Assembly: GCA_046760555.1 (NCBI GenBank) | Contig: JBHIEI010000004.1 | Span: 322-32,321 of the forward strand | Direction of reading: 5' to 3' | Length of the DNA stretch: 32,000 nt | DNA from: Candidatus Bathyarchaeia archaeon | Lineage (GTDB): Archaea > Thermoproteota > Bathyarchaeia > JBHIEI01 | In this document: positions 6,663-31,223 of the stretch, one piece after another | How positions within the stretch are numbered: the first letter of the stretch is position 1 | Layout of the letters: every line of letters begins with the position of its first letter | The notes under the pieces: generated by a model | Database searches by the model: none | What the model was told of the DNA's origin: nothing | The model's input: only the letters and a program-made list of their open reading frames with translations | Made by a program: the position numbers and the translations under genes

Positions 6663-6712
6663 ATCGCCCAGATGGGCTATTTATCAGTAGGATAGCCTAT
6701 CCTTCTTTCGAG

Positions 6713-6808
6713 CGCCGGGGGTGGGACTCGAACCCACGAGGGCCAACGGCCCACGGACTATCCGCCTGGCTTAGCAGGCCCGCACCTTAACCGCTCGGTC
6801 ACCCCGGC
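6713..6808 (-). tRNA. tRNA-Ser (anticodon GCU) with a 12-nt insertion (putative non-canonical intron) in the 3' strand of the anticodon stem
   Basis: Minus strand: GCCGGGG TG ACC GAGCGGTTAA GGT G CGGGC CTGCTAA GCC[AGGCGGATAGTC]CG TGGGCCGTTGGCCCTC GTGGG TTCGAGT CCCAC CCCCGGC G. The acceptor and T arms are perfect and the long variable arm marks a class II tRNA. Removing 6756-6767 restores a perfect CGGGC/GCCCG stem. No CCA is encoded. Confidence 0.85.
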
Positions 6809-6889: not shown

Positions 6890-7205
6890 GTGGTGCGGCG
6901 ATCCCAGCACTCGATAACCTAGCTACCCCGGGCGTGGCACACGCCCTCGAATGCGGAGACTCAAAGCGATCCAGCGTCCGAAGTAAGGCTGCTCCCTCCC
7001 GGGCCTGGCCCGTTCCCCTCGGTGAGGAACGCCGTTTCTCCCCTACGAGAGATAGACGTCTCCGTTGGTCCTTTGAGGCGCACCCTCACAGTTAAGTGTG
7101 CCGGCCTAAGGGATAGGTCGGCTACCTCATGCTGGCATTCAGCCCGCCATAGAGAGCATTTGCGATACAGGAGAGCCCTAGCCTCCCGCCTAGACCGCCG
7201 CACCA
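6890..7205 (-). ncRNA. signal recognition particle RNA (archaeal 7S/SRP RNA)
   Basis: The minus strand begins GGTGCGGCGGTCTAGGCGGG and ends GGGATCGCCGCACC, so the 5' and 3' ends pair. It contains the helix-8 signature GCCAGGCCC-GGGA-GGGAGCAGCC (compare the universal CAGGxCCGGAAGGxAGCAGCC with a GNAR tetraloop). It is about 315 nt. The three ORFs called here are spurious. Confidence 0.85.
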
Positions 7206-20379: not shown

Positions 20380-20775
20380 CTACTTAGAGCTCCCCCTGTA
20401 GATGGCGGTGATCGTCATGTGGGATTTACACTTCGGGCACTCCTTGACCGTCCCCTTGAATATAACGTCCCCCCTTTCGAACCCTCTAACCGACTTGAAG
20501 TTGCACTTGTCGCACTCTTCAACAGTGAATACCCTTTCGTTCTCCACCCTTCTCACGGCACGATACCTCCTTGAGATTTGGGACAGCATGGAAATGGTCA
20601 CCATGAGGCCGAGGATGCCTGTGAACAGGTAGATGGAGACCCTGGAGAACTCTGCGCCCTCGACGAAGTAGAGCTGCCAAGCCGAAAACAGAGAGATTGC
20701 GGTGAGCACGACAACGATCAGAAGGAAGAGAATGGCCGTTATGGGAAATAGCCCCTTCCTCTTAGGAGACTCCAA
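20380..20775 (-). CDS. membrane protein with C-terminal zinc ribbon
   Basis: 131 aa with two predicted TM helices followed by CDKC...CPKC. It overlaps the upstream gene by 14 nt, which implies an operon. Confidence 0.6.
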   Translation of the reverse strand: MESPKRKGLFPITAILFLLIVVVLTAISLFSAWQLYFVEGAEFSRVSIYLFTGILGLMVTISMLSQISRRYRAVRRVENERVFTVEECDKCNFKSVRGFERGDVIFKGTVKECPKCKSHMTITAIYRGSSK

Positions 20776-21877
20776 TCGTATTACCTATCCCAGCGATAAT
20801 CACGGCCCCCCTCTTAGGGACCCTCTCCTCGATTATTCGTTTCACCGCACCCAGCGCATGTTTCGACGAATCTAGGATGGTTTTGGTGATCGGCGTGATC
20901 GCCTCAAGGATGCTCTCCTTTACCACAACGCCGTAGAGGGGGATCTTGTACTTAGAAGCCACCTCTTCTATCTTATACTTCTCGATCCCGATCCCGCCTA
21001 TGGCGGCCCCGATCCCATCGGCTATGCTCCCCGATTTTTCCCCCTCCAGTTTAAGTGCCGCATCCACCATGATGATCGCGTCCACCTTGCCACCGCTCTC
21101 CTCGATGACCCTCTCGATACCATCGCCGGGCTTGCCCACGCTCCCTCCAGGTCCCTTCGCCTTCAGAGCGAAGACGTGCCTACCATCAATCGAGAGCTCG
21201 CCCACGACGACGTCCTTTGCGATCTCCCGCCTCTTCTTTGCTGAACGCAGGAGGTTCGCGGCAACAATCGCTCCGATCCCGTCACCTATCGGTTGGCCCT
21301 CAGCGAAGGCTGACAGAGCCTTGGCGTAGGCTTGAGCCTGCTCCACTATCAGCGGTAAGACCATTTGGAGTTGGGCTATGACGAAGTAGCTCTTCGTCCT
21401 CTTTCCCAGCAGGTAATAATGCCTAATCACCTTGTAGACGAGGTTGAGGGCAGCCGCAGCCTCAAGCATGTTCTCTAGGTTATTTACTTGCCCCTCGTCA
21501 GCGGCAGGAGCTAGCGTTTTAACCTCCTCCTTGAACTTATCGTCTCTGACGTTGACGATGTGTTCGAATTTCCATACAACGCCTGCCGGATCCATGTCCG
21601 CGGGGGAAACAACGAAGTGCTCCATGAACCGATCTACCGCCGGGGTTGGATCCTCCGTGCCCCCCTGCTCCCTGATGGCCTTTATCACGTCCATTCTCCC
21701 CTTGGCCCTCATGTACTTCAGTTTGGTAAGCTGTCTGCTAACCTGAAGTAACGATAGCGAGAGTTGGATCCGTTGTCCGTAGAAGATGAAGACGAAGAAC
21801 ATCCCGTAGAAGGCCAGCTGCAATAGCAGTCCGAAAGTATCCCCTGTTGTTGGGAGCTGAGACACGGGCATAAGCAT
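20762..21877 (-). CDS. conserved archaeal membrane-anchored protein (DUF1512-like, tentative)
   Basis: 371 aa. It has an N-terminal TM helix (FGLLLQLAFYGMFFVFIFYG) and then a soluble Gly-rich C-terminal domain (GAAIGGIGIEKYKIEE..., IIAGIGNTIG). The length and layout match my recollection of DUF1512 proteins. Confidence 0.65.
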   Translation of the reverse strand: MLMPVSQLPTTGDTFGLLLQLAFYGMFFVFIFYGQRIQLSLSLLQVSRQLTKLKYMRAKGRMDVIKAIREQGGTEDPTPAVDRFMEHFVVSPADMDPAGVVWKFEHIVNVRDDKFKEEVKTLAPAADEGQVNNLENMLEAAAALNLVYKVIRHYYLLGKRTKSYFVIAQLQMVLPLIVEQAQAYAKALSAFAEGQPIGDGIGAIVAANLLRSAKKRREIAKDVVVGELSIDGRHVFALKAKGPGGSVGKPGDGIERVIEESGGKVDAIIMVDAALKLEGEKSGSIADGIGAAIGGIGIEKYKIEEVASKYKIPLYGVVVKESILEAITPITKTILDSSKHALGAVKRIIEERVPKRGAVIIAGIGNTIGVS

Positions 21878-21900
21878 ACCTATTCAATCATCTAGATTTT

Positions 21901-21906
21901 AAAAAA
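21901..21906 (-). terminator. oligo-T terminator downstream of the 5S rRNA
   Basis: Minus strand: ...GTCAC CAATTGCTAA TTTTTT. A T6 run lies about 11 nt after the 5S 3' end, the usual archaeal termination signal. Confidence 0.35.
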
Positions 21907-21916
21907 TTAGCAATTG

Positions 21917-22039
21917 GTGACCGCGACTTTCCTGACTTCGCGTAGCCGAAGACAACACTACCGTCAGGAACGGAGCGCGGCTTAACTTCCGAGTTCGGAA
22001 TGGGTTCGGGTGTGTCTCGCGCCCTATGATCGCGGTCAC
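21917..22039 (-). rRNA. 5S ribosomal RNA (stand-alone)
   Basis: Minus strand: GTGACCGCGATCATAGGGCGCGAGACACACCCGAACCCATTCCGAACTCGGAAGTTAAGCCGCGC...GAAAGTCGCGGTCAC. It contains the universal CCGAAC...GGAAGTTAAGC core, and a 10-bp helix I joins the two ends. It is about 123 nt. The two overlapping 87-aa ORFs are spurious. Confidence 0.85.
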
Positions 22040-22065: not shown

Positions 22066-22184
22066 CTACACCCGTGAATGGTGGGGCTGGCCGGATTCGA
22101 CTCCCTGCAGATCTCCAAAAAGACCTTAGCCCACTCGACTGTTGAAGGCATCGCAGCACCAAGCCATACTTCTGAATCGAATAG

Positions 22185-22805
22185 TTACCACGAGGACTCG
22201 ATTCGCGCTATCGCGTATTCATCCGATCGAATCACATCGGCCACAGTTAGCTTGGTAGCTCCAACTATTGATATGCTCGGCGATTCGCTGATCTTCTTAG
22301 CCTTCTTAAAGAGAAAGTTCGCCAGCGATTTTGCACCTGAAGCGTCTTCGGACCACGAAAGATCGTATACAATAGCGTCTGCAGCACGTACGTGAACACC
22401 AATGAAGGGACCGCTTAAGCTCACCCTATCCTTCTTCTGAAGGTCTTGGGGGAGATCCGGCCGTATCTTCTCAAAAGCTTCTCCGGCGAGTCTATCAATC
22501 GCTTCCTGAGCTTCTTCAATGTCGTTTAATACAAAGCGCATAGGGGGGATTTCATCCTGACTGCCGATATCGAAGTCAACAAGTTTGGAATCTTCCCTAA
22601 AGGTCTCAAGCAACCTCTTGAAGCCCCTCTCCACATCTACTAATTTCTCGCAATACGCAGATATATGCGGGTGATAAATACGAGTGGGCCCCTTGGACTT
22701 AAACAGGACATCGACCCTGAAGAAAGTTTTCGCTGGAATCTTACTGGCCTTCTCCTTAAGTTGTAACAGCGCGTTCTGTTCCCATTCTGACAACGGCAAC
22801 GTCAT
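22185..22805 (-). CDS. hypothetical protein (no recognisable family)
   Basis: 206 aa with an ATG start. Its composition is protein-like and acidic. It is the last gene of the TGT-like/LAGLIDADG cluster, 79 nt downstream of the LAGLIDADG gene. Confidence 0.55.
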   Translation of the reverse strand: MTLPLSEWEQNALLQLKEKASKIPAKTFFRVDVLFKSKGPTRIYHPHISAYCEKLVDVERGFKRLLETFREDSKLVDFDIGSQDEIPPMRFVLNDIEEAQEAIDRLAGEAFEKIRPDLPQDLQKKDRVSLSGPFIGVHVRAADAIVYDLSWSEDASGAKSLANFLFKKAKKISESPSISIVGATKLTVADVIRSDEYAIARIESSW

Positions 22806-22884
22806 CTGCCCCAGAACCTCTTTATGTATCTATCCAATTTCCTCCGCTTTTCCGGAGAGAGAAAGCCTATCTCATCCCGGAATT

Positions 22885-23730
22885 TTATGCATCATCACGC
22901 CTAGCTATCTCTAGATCATAATGTTCAGACCAGCTCTCGGTGGCTTTGGTTTTCTCGTAGCCGTGGTGAGATATCGTGCTTTTTATTCCAAAGAAATCTC
23001 TCAGCAAAGTTTGCACCTCCTCTAATCCTCGTTTGTTCGACGAACTTCCTACAACTCGGGTGCTAGAGGGTTTATCCCCGGTGTGAAGATATCCATCGCC
23101 CTCAAAATAAGCGCTCAACCAACACCTTGCTCCCTCTTTATCCAAGTGTTCAAATGGCACACGCCACGCATACGTGTAGATAGGTCCATACTTAGCAAAA
23201 TCATAAGCCATTTCCTTTCCGTAACCGCGTATTTCATCGCGCTTTGGGTAATCGTGAGCCTTTAGGTCGTAAACTTTTTCGAAATTTTCAGCGAAAATCG
23301 ACCTAACGGCTGGATTTGACTCGCTCAGCCTTATTTCGTACTTATAATGCCATCCCCATTTCCCGCGATATTTTTCCCAATACGCACCGCAAGCAAGACT
23401 ACCGTCTGCGCAGGCGGCACCATGCAAACTCGCTTTCTCCCTCGAGAATATTTGACGATGCCCTTCTGGCACGACCTCAAGTAGCATACCTTTGCTTAGT
23501 TTAAACAGCGCTCTGTTCTCTTCTATGAGCACCTTGACCTCTGCAAAAGAGCCTATCTCTTGGTCTCCCTTGCTGACATGAAAGCCCTCTTCGGTTTGGA
23601 GTATGATGTACTCTCCGATCTCGTATCTCTCGGGCGCTGTCTCAGGGCAATCCGCGGGAGACCCCGACTCGATTTCTTGGCCCAAGTGAAATCTCTCCTT
23701 CGCCTGTTTTGTGTGAAGTCCAGACCCCAT
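22885..23730 (-). CDS. free-standing double-motif LAGLIDADG endonuclease-like protein with an approximately 100-aa N-terminal extension
   Basis: Two LAGLIDADG-type motifs lie 103 aa apart: LHGAACADGS (res 102-111) and LSAYFEGDGY (res 205-214). Each is followed by the usual beta-rich segment and a helix (AVRSIFAENFEKVY, LEEVQTLLRDFFGIKSTI). The ATG lies 1 nt after the stop of the TGT-like C-terminal ORF. Confidence 0.7.
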   Translation of the reverse strand: MGSGLHTKQAKERFHLGQEIESGSPADCPETAPERYEIGEYIILQTEEGFHVSKGDQEIGSFAEVKVLIEENRALFKLSKGMLLEVVPEGHRQIFSREKASLHGAACADGSLACGAYWEKYRGKWGWHYKYEIRLSESNPAVRSIFAENFEKVYDLKAHDYPKRDEIRGYGKEMAYDFAKYGPIYTYAWRVPFEHLDKEGARCWLSAYFEGDGYLHTGDKPSSTRVVGSSSNKRGLEEVQTLLRDFFGIKSTISHHGYEKTKATESWSEHYDLEIARRDDA

Positions 23731-23731
23731 A

Positions 23732-24004
23732 CTACCGCCTCTCGTGTAAACTGATTATTTGGGCCAAATTGTGAAGCGCCATGGATTTTGTATCAACGAG
23801 TAGCTCATTCCACCTCCGCCCTCGGCAAAAGTCGCAGTCGCATTCGTAGAGAATGTTGGACTCCAAGCTTCCTACCCCATCTCTTACGTAGACCATACCT
23901 CCCTCGGCCCTTAGGAACCAGCTGAGGCTGGCAAAGTGTACTATCGGATCCTCGGTCAGGTACGCCAAGAATGGATCCCTAACGAAGGGCGTGCCGTAGA
24001 TCAC
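23732..24004 (-). CDS. TGT-like protein, C-terminal fragment (zinc-binding subdomain)
   Basis: 90 aa with a GTG start. (V)IYGTPF...DPIVHFASLSWFLRAEGGMVYVRDG...YECDCDFC...(17 aa)...ALHNL is colinear with the archaeosine/queuine TGT segment G.G.P...DlFDSasY...CxCxxC...H. The zinc ligands C55, C57, C60 and H78 are present. Confidence 0.7.
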   Translation of the reverse strand: MIYGTPFVRDPFLAYLTEDPIVHFASLSWFLRAEGGMVYVRDGVGSLESNILYECDCDFCRGRRWNELLVDTKSMALHNLAQIISLHERR

Positions 24005-24558
24005 GACGTTCGCTCCGAGTTTTTGGCCCTTCTCAGCATGTACTTGAACAGGATCTTACCCACCTTCCCCATGCGGGACAGCTCCCTGTGGGGGAGGACG
24101 AGGGTTCGGAGGCCCATCTCTAGGAGGCGATCTACGCACCAGGAGACCTGCACTTGATTCGCTCCCTTAACTATGCCTAAGAGTGGGATATCCGTGTTTT
24201 CAACTGCATAAAGGGCGTTGTTCACGAAACTGAATATTTGACTCCACGATATCGCCAGCGGGTCGTCGACGTAAGTGTAACAGTCCAGAATCATCGCCAC
24301 ATCCGGGTCGATCGCGTTCAGGAGCTCGACGTACTTCTTACCTGTCAATTGGTCTAGGAGTTCGTCGGGCATAACAGATGACACTATGATTTTTCCATCA
24401 ATCGAGAAATTCGTGGATGCCTTTATCCTTGACCTTTTTGAACAAATCCTTATCGCTAACAGCCTCTCCATCTTGACGATTGCAGCATCGTAAGACACAG
24501 AGTCCCAAAACCAGCTAGTCTTGTCGTCGAGTTTGATTATAGGTGTAAAAGCGGGCAA
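24001..24558 (-). CDS. TGT-like protein, N-terminal fragment (barrel N-half)
   Basis: 185 aa, ending in a GTGA overlap with the next ORF. Alternating beta/alpha pattern; the segment AMILDCYTYVDD sits where TGTs have the substrate-binding DSGG(F/Y)Q strand. The assignment rests mainly on continuity with the C-terminal fragment. Confidence 0.55.
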   Translation of the reverse strand: MPAFTPIIKLDDKTSWFWDSVSYDAAIVKMERLLAIRICSKRSRIKASTNFSIDGKIIVSSVMPDELLDQLTGKKYVELLNAIDPDVAMILDCYTYVDDPLAISWSQIFSFVNNALYAVENTDIPLLGIVKGANQVQVSWCVDRLLEMGLRTLVLPHRELSRMGKVGKILFKYMLRRAKNSERTS

Positions 24559-24611
24559 ATCGATATCGGGTTGTGGTTCCAGTCTTGGGACTCTCCTAGG
24601 CTCTGCTAAGG

Positions 24612-24806
24612 CTAGCTCTGTGAGCTACTCCTTGGGCAAACCGACCTGAAGGCGCAGAAACTGCTTGGATACGTCAATCCGATGTGTTTAACGCATTGTA
24701 TACAACACTGCCTGACGAGGCAAGAGACGCCCTCGCATCCACCGCACAGATTAAGTAGGGGGCACCTAACACAATCCTTTCCGCAACCACCGCTAGGCAC
24801 AATCAT
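24612..24806 (-). CDS. Cys-rich micro-ORF (13 Cys in 64 aa), coding status uncertain
   Basis: MIVPSGGCGKDCVRCPLLNLCGGCEGVSCLVRQCCIQCVKH... starts at an ATG 16 nt after the tRNA-Trp 3' end and ends 53 nt before the TGT-like gene. It has CxxxCxxC and CxxCx5CxxC spacings. I see no promoter of its own. Confidence 0.3.
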   Translation of the reverse strand: MIVPSGGCGKDCVRCPLLNLCGGCEGVSCLVRQCCIQCVKHIGLTYPSSFCAFRSVCPRSSSQS

Positions 24807-24821: not shown

Positions 24822-24983
24822 TGGTGGGGCTGGGGAGATTTGAACTCCCGCCCTACGGGTTCCCCCAGCGCGCTCCAGAAGATCCTCATCCCGAAATCGG
24901 TCAGCACGCTTCCACAGCCAATGCTTCTGGAGCCCCTAACGTCGGCGAACCGATGTCGTCATAGCTGGCTAGACCACAGCCCC
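24822..24983 (-). tRNA. tRNA-Trp (anticodon CCA) with two introns (19 nt at 28/29 and 66 nt at 37/38), CCA encoded
   Basis: Minus strand: GGGGCTG TG GTCT AGCCAGCTA TGAC G AC[ATCGGTTCGCCGACGTTAG]GGG CTCCAG[66 nt]A CCCGT AGGGC GGGAG TTCAAAT CTCCC CAGCCCC A CCA. Removing 24936-24954 and 24861-24926 gives a 74-nt body with a perfect ACGGG/CCCGT anticodon stem. Both insertions can be drawn as BHB motifs. Confidence 0.8.
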
Positions 24984-26609: not shown

Positions 26610-26700
26610 TGGTGCCGGGGGAGGGACTCGATCCCTCGATCTCTGGATGTCTCAGGCTCCCTCATGAGTCCAGCGCATTACCAGCCTATGCAACCCCGGC
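26610..26700 (-). tRNA. tRNA with anticodon CAU (elongator Met or Ile2-type), 14-nt canonical intron, CCA encoded
   Basis: Minus strand: GCCGGGG TT GCAT AGGCTGGTA ATGC G CTGGA CTCATG[AGGGAGCCTGAGAC]A TCCAG AGATC GAGGG ATCGAGT CCCTC CCCCGGC A CCA. The intron (26649-26662) forms a minimal BHB. The central helix is CTCA/TGAG, the bulges are TGA and ACA, and the outer helix is GG/CC. Confidence 0.85.
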
Positions 26701-31118: not shown

Positions 31119-31223
31119 GCCCCGGTGGCTCAGTGGCTAGAGCAAGCTGATTGCGGTCAGAGCGGCTGCCTCGTAGCGCCGAGAGAGAGCAGTAGGTCGC
31201 GGGTTCGATCCCCGCCCGGGGCT
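31119..31223 (+). tRNA. tRNA-Thr (anticodon CGU) with two insertions (about 20 nt after the D-arm and 12 nt at 37/38)
   Basis: GCCCCGG TG GCTC AGTGGCTA GAGC [AAGCTGATTGCGGTCAGAGC] G GCTGC CTCGTA[GCGCCGAGAGAG]A GCAGT AGGTC GCGGG TTCGATC CCCGC CCGGGGC T. The spliced form is a 73-nt tRNA with a GCTGC/GCAGT stem and discriminator U, as in the other Thr tRNA. C3-G70 rules out the alternative Ala(UGC) reading. A T-run follows. Confidence 0.75.

What the first reader, a model, noticed from the sequence alone, without database searches (positions are those of the whole stretch)
22185..24806. Candidate undescribed module: TGT-like base-exchange enzyme, LAGLIDADG nuclease-like protein and orphan ORFs, between the 5S rRNA and a tRNA cluster
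Five co-oriented minus-strand ORFs fill the gap between tRNA-Trp/Pro and the 5S rRNA. They are a 64-aa Cys-rich ORF, the TGT-like N- and C-halves (GTGA overlap), a LAGLIDADG-type protein whose ATG lies 1 nt after the TGT stop, and, 79 nt further on, a 206-aa orphan. The tight coupling implies co-expression of a transglycosylase-fold protein with a DNA-endonuclease-fold protein. Neither is in its usual context. The TGT-like protein is only about 275 aa and lacks the PUA and C-terminal domains of archaeosine TGT. The LAGLIDADG protein is not inside an intron or an intein. TGT paralogs of the DpdA type insert 7-deazaguanines into DNA as part of modification/restriction-like systems. A base-exchange enzyme paired with a nuclease would fit a modification-dependent or modification-protected defence or mobile module. 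The locus looks slightly more AT-rich than its flanks and sits next to tRNA genes, a common target for integration in archaea.
Basis: partly seen in the sequence, partly recalled or inferred. Interest (0 to 1): 0.7.

Follow-up and report, generated by a model that had tools for sequence, protein, structure and literature searches.

The report
Decaying tRNA-flanked TGT-fold plus LAGLIDADG cassette
Between a tRNA-Trp gene and the 5S rRNA gene of a Bathyarchaeia genome lies a frameshift-ridden copy of an undescribed three-gene cassette (a transglycosylase-fold protein, a LAGLIDADG nuclease and an unknown partner) that recurs in other archaea next to tRNA genes and looks like a small mobile or selfish element.

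Summary
The five ORFs are present at the stated coordinates, but they are three genes. The 64-, 185- and 90-aa ORFs are pieces of one roughly 360-aa gene: a Cys-rich N-terminal domain followed by a TGT-fold barrel with a zinc site. This gene is broken by at least four frameshifts. The LAGLIDADG gene has lost its last ~28 codons to a fifth frameshift, and the "79-nt spacer" is that lost coding sequence. Fourteen neighbouring genes checked in the window have intact domains, so the module is decaying in this genome.

The module is nevertheless real. TGT-like, LAGLIDADG and a ~200-aa gene occur together in six other lineages, and TGT-like plus LAGLIDADG in a seventh. The members that carry names are Thermoproteota or Bathyarchaeia, annotated as hypothetical proteins. 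Flanking genes differ between lineages. Five of six assessable lineages have a tRNA gene beside the module, and four have partial tRNA direct repeats at both borders (64 nt in the best case, 23/28 nt here). No integrase is present.

The TGT fold is confirmed and is closest to ArcTGT. The two catalytic aspartates of TGT/DpdA are replaced by Ser and Ala throughout the family, and no preQ0 genes accompany the cassette. A DpdA-type 7-deazaguanine exchange is therefore not supported.

Best reading: a compact, tRNA-gene-associated mobile or selfish nuclease cassette, possibly with a conflict role, that is dying here.

The parts
24822..24983 (-). tRNA-Trp(CCA) gene with encoded CCA and two introns (19 nt at 24938-24956; 66 nt at 24861-24926). 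It forms the left border of the cassette.
   Evidence: Default ARAGORN and the Rfam tRNA model both miss it. The tmRNA model picks up its acceptor and T-arm. After the two introns are removed, ARAGORN calls tRNA-Trp(cca).
24822..24849 (-). Left copy of the direct repeat: T-arm, 3' acceptor strand and ACCA of tRNA-Trp (GGGAGTTCAAATCTCCCCAGCCCCACCA).
23732..24806 (-). TGT-like pseudogene. It reconstructs to ~359 aa: a Cys-rich N-terminal domain (CX3CX2C-X5-CX2C...), a TGT-fold TIM barrel, and a CxCxxC...H zinc site. In the window it reads as three ORFs (24612-24806, 24001-24558, 23732-24004).
   Evidence: Intact homologues are 51-62% identical over the reconstructed protein. N-terminal domain in L002. 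Profile against the PDB hits ArcTGT. AF2 and Foldseek.
24614..24618 (-). Frameshift 1 (A instead of AA), separating the Cys-rich domain from the barrel.
   Evidence: The near-identical Logan contig L003 has the extra A and reads through (P0005).
24397..24470 (-). Frameshifts 2 and 3: GG instead of GGG near 24468, and a 2-nt loss near 24400. Together they put ~24 codons out of frame.
   Evidence: The alternative frame reads GEAVSDKDLFKKVKDKGIHEFLD, which matches the homologues. The ORF's own frame does not.
24020..24024 (-). Frameshift 4 at an A5 run (A6 would restore the frame). This creates the 'GTGA overlap' between the 185-aa and 90-aa ORFs.
   Evidence: The same frameshift is present in L003 and P0004.
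22802..23730 (-). LAGLIDADG gene, ancestral extent ~309 aa. The present ORF is 22885-23730. A 1-nt loss near 22888-22890 cuts off the last ~28 codons. Motifs are LHGAACADG and LSAYFEGDG.
   Evidence: Pfam LAGLIDADG_3. Full-length homologues P0008 and P0009 cover 100% of the reconstruction. C-terminus found in another frame. Invariant D-G in both motifs. Nearest solved relative is an archaeal V-ATPase intein endonuclease domain.
22185..22805 (-). Third cassette gene, 206 aa, apparently intact, family unknown.
   Evidence: 27-35% identical to the third gene of five other cassettes and 16% to a sixth (L011). No Pfam, NCBIfam, PADLOC, PHROG or PDB match.
22079..22105 (-). Right copy of the direct repeat: a degenerate tRNA 3'-end remnant (GGGAGT-CGAATCCGGCCAGCCCCACCA). 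It lies 80 nt after the stop of the third gene and 42 nt before the 5S rRNA.
   Evidence: 23/28 identical to the tRNA-Trp 3' end. The exact 12-mer CCAGCCCCACCA occurs only at these two places in 32 kb. It is not a tRNA by Rfam or ARAGORN.
21918..22037 (-). 5S rRNA gene, a host flank and not part of the cassette.
   Evidence: Rfam 72 bits. 5S-DUF1512 synteny is conserved in 8 of 8 relatives checked, none of which has the cassette.

Best explanation
The interval from about 24821 to 22106 is a ~2.7-kb three-gene cassette inserted at the 3' end of tRNA-Trp, upstream of the conserved 5S-DUF1512 block. In this genome it is being lost to frameshift mutations.

The cassette family encodes three proteins:
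1. A ~360-aa protein with an unclassified Cys-rich (probably metal or Fe-S binding) N-terminal domain, and a TGT-fold TIM barrel with the TGT zinc site.
2. A free-standing two-motif LAGLIDADG endonuclease with a family-specific ~90-aa N-terminal domain.
3. A ~200-aa protein of unknown fold.

Shown: the gene content and tight coupling are conserved. Flanking genes differ between lineages. A tRNA gene lies beside the cassette and partial tRNA direct repeats mark its borders. No integrase is present. The TGT fold is present, but the canonical catalytic aspartates are absent.

Inferred: the cassette is a mobile or selfish unit that enters at tRNA genes. The LAGLIDADG protein supplies DNA cleavage, either for homing-type spread with co-conversion of the adjacent tRNA or as a toxic effector. 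The TGT-fold protein keeps the base-binding Asp but lacks the covalent-catalysis Asp. It therefore more likely recognises a nucleic acid or base (tRNA, tRNA-gene DNA or a flipped base), or performs non-canonical chemistry, than exchanges 7-deazaguanine. A conflict or defence role for the cargo is compatible with this reading and is not excluded.
For: Gene structure and decay:
- Homologues and three-frame translation show the three-gene structure and the frameshifts.
- The 14 other window genes scanned show no split or truncated domains (PolB, PheRS alpha and beta, RpiA, PGK, DUF1512 and others).
- All 3 differences between the window and the 99.93%-identical contig L003 fall inside the TGT-like gene.

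Conservation:
- TGT-like, LAGLIDADG_3 and a ~200-aa gene occur together in L001/2/7, L004/5/6, L008, L010 and L011/12.
- L099/100 has the TGT-like and LAGLIDADG genes in a possibly permuted order.
- The neighbours are unrelated from lineage to lineage.

tRNA borders:
- L011: 64-nt repeat (61/64) running from the anticodon of tRNA-Leu to its 3' end, on both sides of the cassette.
- L004/5: 31-nt repeat with compensatory T-stem changes.
- L008: a perfect repeat of at least 30 nt of the tRNA-Gly 5' part.
- Window: 23/28 nt, with an exact 12-mer that is unique to the two borders.
- L001/2/7: tRNA-Pro 100 nt from the cassette end.
- A reconstituted tRNA plus a partial tRNA repeat is the established border signature of archaeal integrated elements (PMC3293823).

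Other evidence:
- Between L001 and L002 the flanks are 99.4-99.5% identical. The block holding the cassette and its tRNA is 93.7% identical.
- 80 loci with DUF1512 relatives lack the cassette, although 5S-DUF1512 synteny is kept in all 8 checked.
- TGT fold. Missing catalytic Asp.
- The LAGLIDADG catalytic Asp-Gly is invariant in both motifs.
Against: - No recombinase or integrase of any known family lies between the repeats, so the insertion mechanism is unexplained.
- The window's own repeat is short and degenerate (23/28).
- One lineage (L001/2/7) has an adjacent tRNA but no detectable repeat. L010 could not be assessed.
- No empty site, circular form, plasmid copy or viral copy was found.
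- Homing by a LAGLIDADG enzyme does not normally create target duplications.
- All loci other than L001/L002 are short metagenomic contigs.
- The Logan contig that shares the frameshifts may come from the same sample as the MAG, so the frameshifts are confirmed by independent assembly, not necessarily by independent data.
- No function was tested for any of the three proteins.
Confidence: 0.55

Rival explanations
1. One reading: a DpdA-like enzyme inserts a 7-deazaguanine into DNA and is paired with a nuclease, forming a modification-protected or modification-dependent restriction or defence module.
For: - TGT fold and a weak match to the PADLOC 'TGT' model.
- Obligatory pairing with a nuclease, either LAGLIDADG in trans or a calcineurin-like phosphoesterase fused in cis in a sister branch.
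- A distant branch sits in an operon with ThsB-type TIR proteins, next to a Dam methylase.
- L002/L007 have Mrr_cat and PIN/RHH genes directly upstream, in a strain-variable segment.
- Both the TGT-like gene and the nuclease gene are damaged here, as expected if an R-M-like pair is lost together.
Against: - The general-acid Asp and the nucleophile Asp are invariant and essential in TGT and DpdA. They are Ser and Ala in every close member, and the nucleophile is absent in all but one (P0153, a canonical TGT) of the 122 aligned relatives.
- DpdA 7ui4 scores E 1.5e-3 against 6e-15 for ArcTGT.
- No QueC/D/E, FolE or DpdB-like genes were seen inside the cassette or directly next to it in any locus read.
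- The close family has no relatives among phages, plasmids or IMG/VR contigs.
Confidence: 0.2
2. The three genes are passive cargo left from a larger tRNA-integrating element, or a cassette moved in trans by an integrase encoded elsewhere. The genes themselves play no part in mobility.
For: - The border signature (tRNA plus a partial tRNA repeat, at anticodon-loop or T-arm positions) is the one left by archaeal integrases.
- No recombinase is present inside the cassette.
Against: - In four divergent lineages (35-60% protein identity) that use different tRNAs (Trp, Leu-GAG, Leu-UAA, Gly), the repeats enclose exactly these three genes and nothing else (spacing 2.7-2.9 kb).
- It is hard to see how independent decay of larger elements would always leave the same three genes.
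Confidence: 0.15
3. A cellular tRNA-modification or tRNA-processing operon that lies beside tRNA genes for functional reasons. The TGT-like protein would act on tRNA and the LAGLIDADG protein would act as an RNA-binding maturase-like factor.
For: - ArcTGT is the closest structure.
- The cassettes sit next to tRNA genes, often intron-bearing ones.
Against: - Distribution is patchy: 6 close hits among 5.8 billion proteins, and one hit among 185,579 species genomes with a search pattern that finds only close relatives.
- Several copies are pseudogenised (the window and L008).
- The adjacent tRNAs differ, and partial tRNA duplicates flank the module.
- The family lacks the PUA and C-terminal tRNA-binding domains, and lacks the catalytic Asp.
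- The catalytic Asp residues of the nuclease motifs are conserved.
Confidence: 0.07

Closest known systems
Archaeosine tRNA-guanine transglycosylase (ArcTGT, PDB 1iq8) and bacterial TGT
   Same: - Same (beta/alpha)8 barrel. Foldseek E 5e-14 and TM 0.67 to 1iq8; about 1e-9 to bacterial TGTs.
- Same CxCxxC...H zinc motif.
- The base-binding Asp (ArcTGT D130) is kept as the D of 'LDCYTY'.
   Different: - The general-acid Asp (D95) is Ser and the nucleophile Asp (D249) is Ala.
- There are no PUA or C-terminal domains.
- An extra Cys-rich N-terminal domain is present that has no Pfam match.
- Family-specific near-invariant residues are D120, Y151 and G187 (P0001 numbering).
DpdA and the Dpd 7-deazaguanine DNA modification-restriction system (PDB 7ui4; PMC10164549)
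   Same: A TGT-fold protein encoded together with nuclease-type partners, outside a tRNA-modification context.
   Different: - Weak similarity (E 1.5e-3).
- The catalytic Asp95 and Asp256 equivalents are absent.
- No DpdB ATPase, DpdC or preQ0 pathway genes.
- The partner is a LAGLIDADG protein.
Archaeal tRNA-gene-integrating elements (SSV-type and pNOB8-type; PMC3293823)
   Same: A reconstituted tRNA gene at one border and a partial tRNA direct repeat at the other. The first element gene lies directly downstream of the tRNA on the same strand.
   Different: - No tyrosine recombinase is present.
- The element is only ~2.7-2.9 kb with three genes.
- The gene next to the tRNA is the TGT-fold protein.
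Free-standing homing endonuclease genes and intein or intron LAGLIDADG endonucleases (nearest solved: archaeal V-ATPase intein, 7qsu)
   Same: - Two-motif LAGLIDADG core with both catalytic acids.
- Higher divergence across the cassette and its adjacent tRNA than in the flanks between two strains. This resembles a co-conversion tract.
- Recurrent pseudogenisation.
   Different: - Not inside an intron or an intein.
- Always accompanied by a TGT-fold gene (seven lineages) and, in six of them, by a third gene.
- Flanked by target duplications, which classical homing does not create.

Membership tests
TGT structural superfamily | TIM-barrel fold superimposable on TGT or ArcTGT | tested here: met
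   AF2 model of homologue P0001: pLDDT 92.6, pTM 0.90. All of the top 50 Foldseek PDB hits are TGTs, the best being 1iq8 at E 5e-14. The family profile hits 1iq8 at E 6e-15.
TGT structural superfamily | Structural zinc site CxCxxC...H | tested here: met
   C324, C326, C329 and H347 are invariant in the close family and align with the ArcTGT zinc motif. The site is absent in the distant ~300-aa branch.
Catalytic TGT/DpdA (base-exchange enzymes) | General acid/base Asp (Zm D102, ArcTGT D95, DpdA D95) | tested here: not met
   It aligns to the first Ser of the 'SSIMPDE' motif, both in the HMM alignment to 1iq8 and in the MAFFT alignment with the bona fide TGT P0153. A conserved Asp five residues later (D120) cannot be placed without model coordinates.
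Catalytic TGT/DpdA (base-exchange enzymes) | Nucleophile Asp at the end of beta8 (Zm D280, ArcTGT D249, DpdA D256) | tested here: not met
   It aligns to the Ala of 'FASLSW'. The position is Ala, Ser, Gly, Val or Ile in all but one (P0153, a canonical TGT) of the 122 relatives. The residue is essential in DpdA.
Catalytic TGT/DpdA (base-exchange enzymes) | Base-recognising Asp (Zm D156, ArcTGT D130, DpdA D130) | tested here: met
   The D of 'LDCYTY' is present in at least 90% of 122 sequences.
Dpd system | Co-encoded DpdB-like ATPase and/or preQ0 synthesis genes | tested here: not met
   None lies inside the cassette or directly next to it in the window or in any locus read.
ArcTGT | C-terminal C1, C2 and PUA tRNA-binding domains | tested here: not met
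   The protein ends ~15 residues after the zinc-site His. Foldseek TM normalised to the target is only 0.40.
LAGLIDADG endonuclease | Pfam LAGLIDADG-type domain above threshold | tested here: met
   PF14528 scores 34.8 bits against a cut-off of 22.5. It is also recorded for 7 of the 8 homologues.
LAGLIDADG endonuclease | Two LAGLIDADG motifs, each ending in a catalytic acidic residue followed by Gly | tested here: met
   LHGAACADG and LSAYFEGDG. D109-G110 and D212-G213 are invariant in 9 sequences.
LAGLIDADG endonuclease | Site-specific DNA cleavage | not testable with these tools
   Needs a biochemical assay. The window copy also lacks its last 28 residues.
Homing endonuclease in an intron or intein | Embedded in a self-splicing intron or an intein | tested here: not met
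   It is free-standing, with its own start 1 nt after the TGT-like stop. No Hint or intein domain was found.
tRNA-integrating archaeal mobile element | Intact tRNA at one border and a partial tRNA direct repeat at the other | tested here: met
   L011 61/64 nt, L004/5 24/31 nt, L008 at least 30/30 nt, window 23/28 nt. Not found in L001/2/7.
tRNA-integrating archaeal mobile element | Element-encoded tyrosine (SSV or pNOB8 type) or serine recombinase | tested here: not met
   None of the three window proteins hits a recombinase family in Pfam, NCBIfam or PHROGs. No recombinase Pfam family is recorded for the cassette genes of the other loci.
tRNA-integrating archaeal mobile element | Empty site in relatives, or an excised circular form | tested here: inconclusive
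   Only ~50%-identical DUF1512 relatives were available. They keep 5S-DUF1512 synteny and lack the cassette, but their upstream regions are not comparable.

The most novel reading that the evidence does not exclude
The cassette is an autonomous, integrase-free mobile element of a new kind. A protein built on the tRNA-recognising TGT fold, catalytically remodelled and carrying a metal-cluster domain, targets tRNA genes or their transcripts. It directs a dedicated LAGLIDADG nuclease and a third factor to insert the element there, regenerating the tRNA from an element-borne copy.
Probability: 0.2. Interest if true: 0.9.

Novelty: new variant of a known kind. Interest (0 to 1): 0.7.

Why it matters
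If the cassette is self-mobile, it would add a new way of targeting tRNA genes, without a tyrosine integrase, to the known archaeal mobile elements. It would also give the TGT fold a role outside base exchange.

If it is a conflict system, it defines an unannotated superfamily of 216 protein clusters, with every named member called 'hypothetical' or 'metallophosphoesterase'. In that superfamily a catalytically remodelled TGT barrel is repeatedly wired to effectors: LAGLIDADG in trans, a phosphoesterase in cis, and TIR proteins in an operon. Such a barrel could serve as a sensor or reader of modified bases or nucleotides.

Either outcome can be tested with three small proteins from intact copies. 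For this genome specifically, the locus is a dying insertion with no expected function.

Tried and rejected
- Programmed frameshift at the A5 run. Rejected: the gene has three further frameshifts at unrelated sites, a near-identical strain carries yet another, and the homologues are uninterrupted.
- Poor sequence quality. Rejected: none of the 14 other window genes scanned is split or truncated.
- Intein or intron origin of the LAGLIDADG gene. No splicing domain and no intron context were found.
- Function of the 206-aa protein. Pfam, NCBIfam, PADLOC, PHROGs, a homologue search and a profile search against the PDB gave nothing.
- Cys-rich domain. No Pfam match, even at E up to 10. The resemblance to SPASM or radical-SAM Cys motifs comes from memory only and was not tested.
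- Virus or plasmid carriage. Nothing in IMG/VR (pattern scan), INPHARED or PLSDB.
- Empty-site comparison. The metagenome scan returned only ~50%-identical relatives.
- The genome-contig scan found only JAPDIZ01, because the pattern was narrow. The first attempt with A2 failed.
- The first AF2 run with 6 sequences was unusable (pLDDT 57).
- tRNA repeats around the phosphoesterase-fusion locus L014. None found, although a tRNA-Glu is adjacent.
- Literature searches for a described TGT-plus-LAGLIDADG, TGT-plus-TIR or '8xMP' system found nothing relevant.
- A box C/D RNA in the tRNA-Trp intron was considered but not established.

Full report
**What is in the window**

The window is archaeal: it contains an archaeal SRP RNA, an isolated 5S rRNA and intron-bearing tRNAs. 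Exact protein matches place it in a Candidatus Bathyarchaeia MAG. The junction details (GTGA overlap, ATG 1 nt after a stop, 79-nt gap) are correct.

**The ORFs are three genes, two of them broken**

A search with the joined 185- and 90-aa halves found only six proteins among 5.8 billion.

- The intact homologues P0001, P0002, P0003 and P0006 are uninterrupted.
- P0001 (from L002 and L001) begins with a sequence that matches the window's 64-aa Cys-rich ORF.
- Read upstream, the L002 gene starts MEVAENCGRNCSRCYFFSINLCSGC... This parallels the window's MIVPSGGCGKDCVRCPLLNLCGGC....
- A 99.93%-identical Logan contig (L003) carries one extra A at 24616 and reads straight from the Cys-rich domain into the barrel (P0005).

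Three-frame translation and tblastn locate further lesions.

- About 24 codons between ~24468 and ~24400 are out of frame. The alternative frame reads GEAVSDKDLFKKVKDKGIHEFLD, as in the homologues.
- The 'GTGA overlap' is a frameshift at an A5 run (24020-24024).
- The TGT-like gene therefore has at least four frameshifts.

The LAGLIDADG ORF is also truncated.

- Full-length relatives (P0008 at 308 aa, P0009 at 307 aa) end in ...KFRDEIGF.SPEK..KL......R..G.
- The window encodes this sequence in another frame inside the '79-nt spacer'.
- The restored stop overlaps the ATG of the 206-aa gene as ATGA.

The damage is confined to the module.

- The 14 other window genes scanned show no split or truncated domains (PolB, PheRS alpha and beta, RpiA, PGK, DUF1512, TtuA-like, M50, aldehyde oxidoreductase, GAF/DUF835, Toprim and others).
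- All three differences between the window and L003 over 4.5 kb lie inside the TGT-like gene.
- In this genome the module is decaying.

**The module is real and conserved elsewhere**

The same three genes, abutting or overlapping, occur in six further lineages.

- L001/L002/L007, from Bathyarchaeota MAG JAPDIZ01 and relatives.
- L004/5/6.
- L008.
- L010.
- L011/12.

In L099/100 the TGT-like and LAGLIDADG genes are preceded by a possible third-gene homologue (E 0.07), which suggests a permuted gene order.

Neighbouring genes differ from lineage to lineage.

- L002: PIN/RHH, Mrr_cat, RIO1 and the CCA-adding enzyme.
- L004: AzlCD and CorA.
- L011: ion transporters.
- The window: tRNAs and the 5S rRNA.

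L008's LAGLIDADG gene is frameshifted at its second motif.

**The TGT-like protein**

An exhaustive profile search found 216 clusters at E ≤ 1e-3, of which 28 are at E ≤ 1e-30.

With a 122-sequence alignment, AlphaFold gave a confident model (pLDDT 92.6, pTM 0.90).

- All of its top PDB matches are TGTs. ArcTGT 1iq8 is best (E 5e-14, TM 0.67) and bacterial TGTs follow at about 1e-9.
- By sequence profile, 1iq8 scores 6e-15 and DpdA 7ui4 only 1.5e-3.

The zinc motif CxCxxC...H and the base-binding Asp (ArcTGT D130, the D of 'LDCYTY') are conserved. The catalytic residues are not.

- ArcTGT D95 aligns to Ser ('SSIMPDE').
- The nucleophile D249 aligns to Ala ('FASLSW').
- This holds both in the HMM alignment and in a MAFFT alignment that includes one bona fide TGT, P0153, which keeps DCGG...FDS.
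- According to PMC10164549, these Asp residues are invariant in TGT and DpdA, and alanine substitution abolishes exchange.

Canonical base exchange is therefore not expected. The family has its own near-invariant residues (D120, D147, Y151, G187).

The ~60-80-aa N-terminal domain has 8-11 Cys (CX3CX2C-X5-7-CxxC...) and no Pfam match. A metal or Fe-S cluster is an inference.

Sister branches differ in their partners.

- One branch is fused to a calcineurin-like phosphoesterase.
- A distant ~300-aa branch without the zinc site sits in an operon with ThsB-type TIR proteins, next to a Dam methylase.

Named members are Thermoproteota, Thermoprotei or Bathyarchaeia 'hypothetical proteins'.

**The LAGLIDADG protein and the third protein**

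The LAGLIDADG protein has these features.

- Pfam LAGLIDADG_3 is above threshold.
- The two motifs (LHGAACADG and LSAYFEGDG) have invariant Asp-Gly.
- The nearest solved relative is an archaeal V-ATPase intein endonuclease domain (E 3e-5).
- It is free-standing and has a conserved, family-specific ~90-aa N-terminal region.

The third protein is conserved only within the cassettes (mostly 27-35% identity). It has no detectable relatives or structure matches.

**tRNA borders**

In the window the cassette starts 15 nt after the CCA of a tRNA-Trp gene. ARAGORN recognises this gene only after a 19-nt and a 66-nt intron are removed.

Eighty nt past the last stop codon, and 42 nt before the 5S rRNA, lies a 27-nt remnant. 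It is 23/28 identical to the T-arm and 3' end of tRNA-Trp. The exact 12-mer CCAGCCCCACCA occurs nowhere else in 32 kb.

The same arrangement is much clearer elsewhere.

- L011: a 64-nt repeat (61/64) runs from the anticodon of tRNA-Leu(GAG) to its 3' end and brackets exactly the three genes.
- L004/5: a tRNA-Leu(UAA) 3' end, and a 31-nt copy with compensatory T-stem changes.
- L008: a repeat of at least 30 nt of the 5' part of a tRNA-Gly.
- L001/2/7: an intron-bearing tRNA-Pro lies 100 nt beyond the third gene, but no repeat was found.

With about 50 tRNA genes per genome, adjacency within ~150 nt is expected for roughly 1% of loci (my estimate). Here it is seen in five of six assessable lineages.

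A reconstituted tRNA plus a partial tRNA direct repeat is the accepted border signature of archaeal integrated elements (PMC3293823). The repeats are 2.7-2.9 kb apart and enclose no recombinase.

Two further observations fit an insertion.

- Between L001 and L002 the flanks are 99.4-99.5% identical. The block holding the cassette and tRNA-Pro is 93.7% identical, and the segment upstream of it is non-homologous. This suggests exchange of the unit.
- In 8 of 8 distant relatives checked the 5S-DUF1512 pair is conserved, and none of 80 such loci has the cassette. The cassette is therefore an insertion in this lineage.

**Interpretation**

The best-supported reading is a compact tRNA-gene-associated mobile or selfish cassette, and the copy in this window is dying.

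- Shown: the cassette's composition, its conservation, its borders and its decay.
- Inferred: how it moves and what its proteins do.

The nuclease is the obvious candidate for DNA cleavage. The TGT-fold protein keeps a base pocket but not covalent catalysis. It is better viewed as a recognition module, or as a non-canonical enzyme.

A defence or conflict role is compatible with the effector partnerships across the superfamily and with some island-like contexts. The specific DpdA/7-deazaguanine model is not supported.

A purely passive-cargo model and a housekeeping tRNA-enzyme model are less likely. The reasons are given under the rival explanations.

**Limits**

- Most loci are short metagenomic contigs.
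- No empty site or circular form was found.
- No coordinates were available to place D120 in the active site.
- The frameshifts are confirmed by independent assembly, not necessarily by independent samples.
- Nothing was tested experimentally.

Noticed in passing
window 24822-24983 (-): tRNA-Trp(CCA) appears to carry two introns: 19 nt after position 26 and 66 nt at position 37/38. Default ARAGORN and the Rfam tRNA model both miss it, and only the tmRNA model touches its acceptor and T-arm. Whether the long intron holds a box C/D guide, as in some archaeal tRNA-Trp genes, was not established.
   Followed up: partly
window 6712-6808 (-), 26613-26700 (-), 31119-31223 (+): Three further tRNA genes are longer than standard, probably because of introns. 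Two are seen only by Rfam, and ARAGORN gives the third an undetermined anticodon. The first lies right next to the SRP RNA (6896-7200).
   Followed up: no
L015 2005-4370 (also L016, L017): A distant ~330-aa branch of the same TGT-like superfamily has no zinc site and no Pfam family. It is followed 1 nt later by a ThsB-type TIR gene, then an '8xMP' protein and a second TIR gene. A Dam-type methylase, DUF6996/6997/7226 and a metallophosphoesterase lie nearby. This looks like an undescribed Thoeris-like arrangement.
   Followed up: partly
P0037, P0041, P0043, P0045 and others; L014 4815-6605; L009 342-2156: A 500-617-aa archaeal branch fuses the Cys-rich and TGT-like module to a C-terminal calcineurin-like metallophosphoesterase. 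One member is in Ca. Culexmicrobium profundum. L014 has HEPN/nucleotidyltransferase genes, a second phosphoesterase, a 1689-aa ORF and a tRNA-Glu nearby. In L009 the gene is followed by unknown 485-aa and 90-aa genes.
   Followed up: partly
L010 3-240: There are four copies of a ~32-nt repeat spaced 64-70 nt apart (a CRISPR-like array), about 750 nt upstream of that lineage's cassette.
   Followed up: no
L001 7800-9328 versus L002 6983-9328 (and L007 2226-5104): Directly upstream of the cassette, near-identical strains differ. L002 and L007 carry a PIN gene, an Mrr_cat/NA-iREase1 restriction-like gene and a 366-aa unknown gene. L001 has unrelated small ORFs. This is a strain-variable islet beside PIN/RHH toxin-antitoxin pairs.
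   Followed up: partly
window 20380-22037 (-); L029, L030, L036, L048, L051, L067, L070, L079: The 5S rRNA gene sits immediately upstream of a DUF1512 gene in the window and in all 8 relatives checked (~50% protein identity). In 63 of 80 loci a small Cys-containing membrane protein follows. This synteny may reflect co-transcription.
   Followed up: partly
L011 3490-3545: Just upstream of the right-hand 64-nt repeat there is a second anticodon-arm-like stretch (GGCGCAGGGCTTAGGCC) that resembles a tRNA-Leu(UAG). The border may therefore record more than one recombination event.
   Followed up: no
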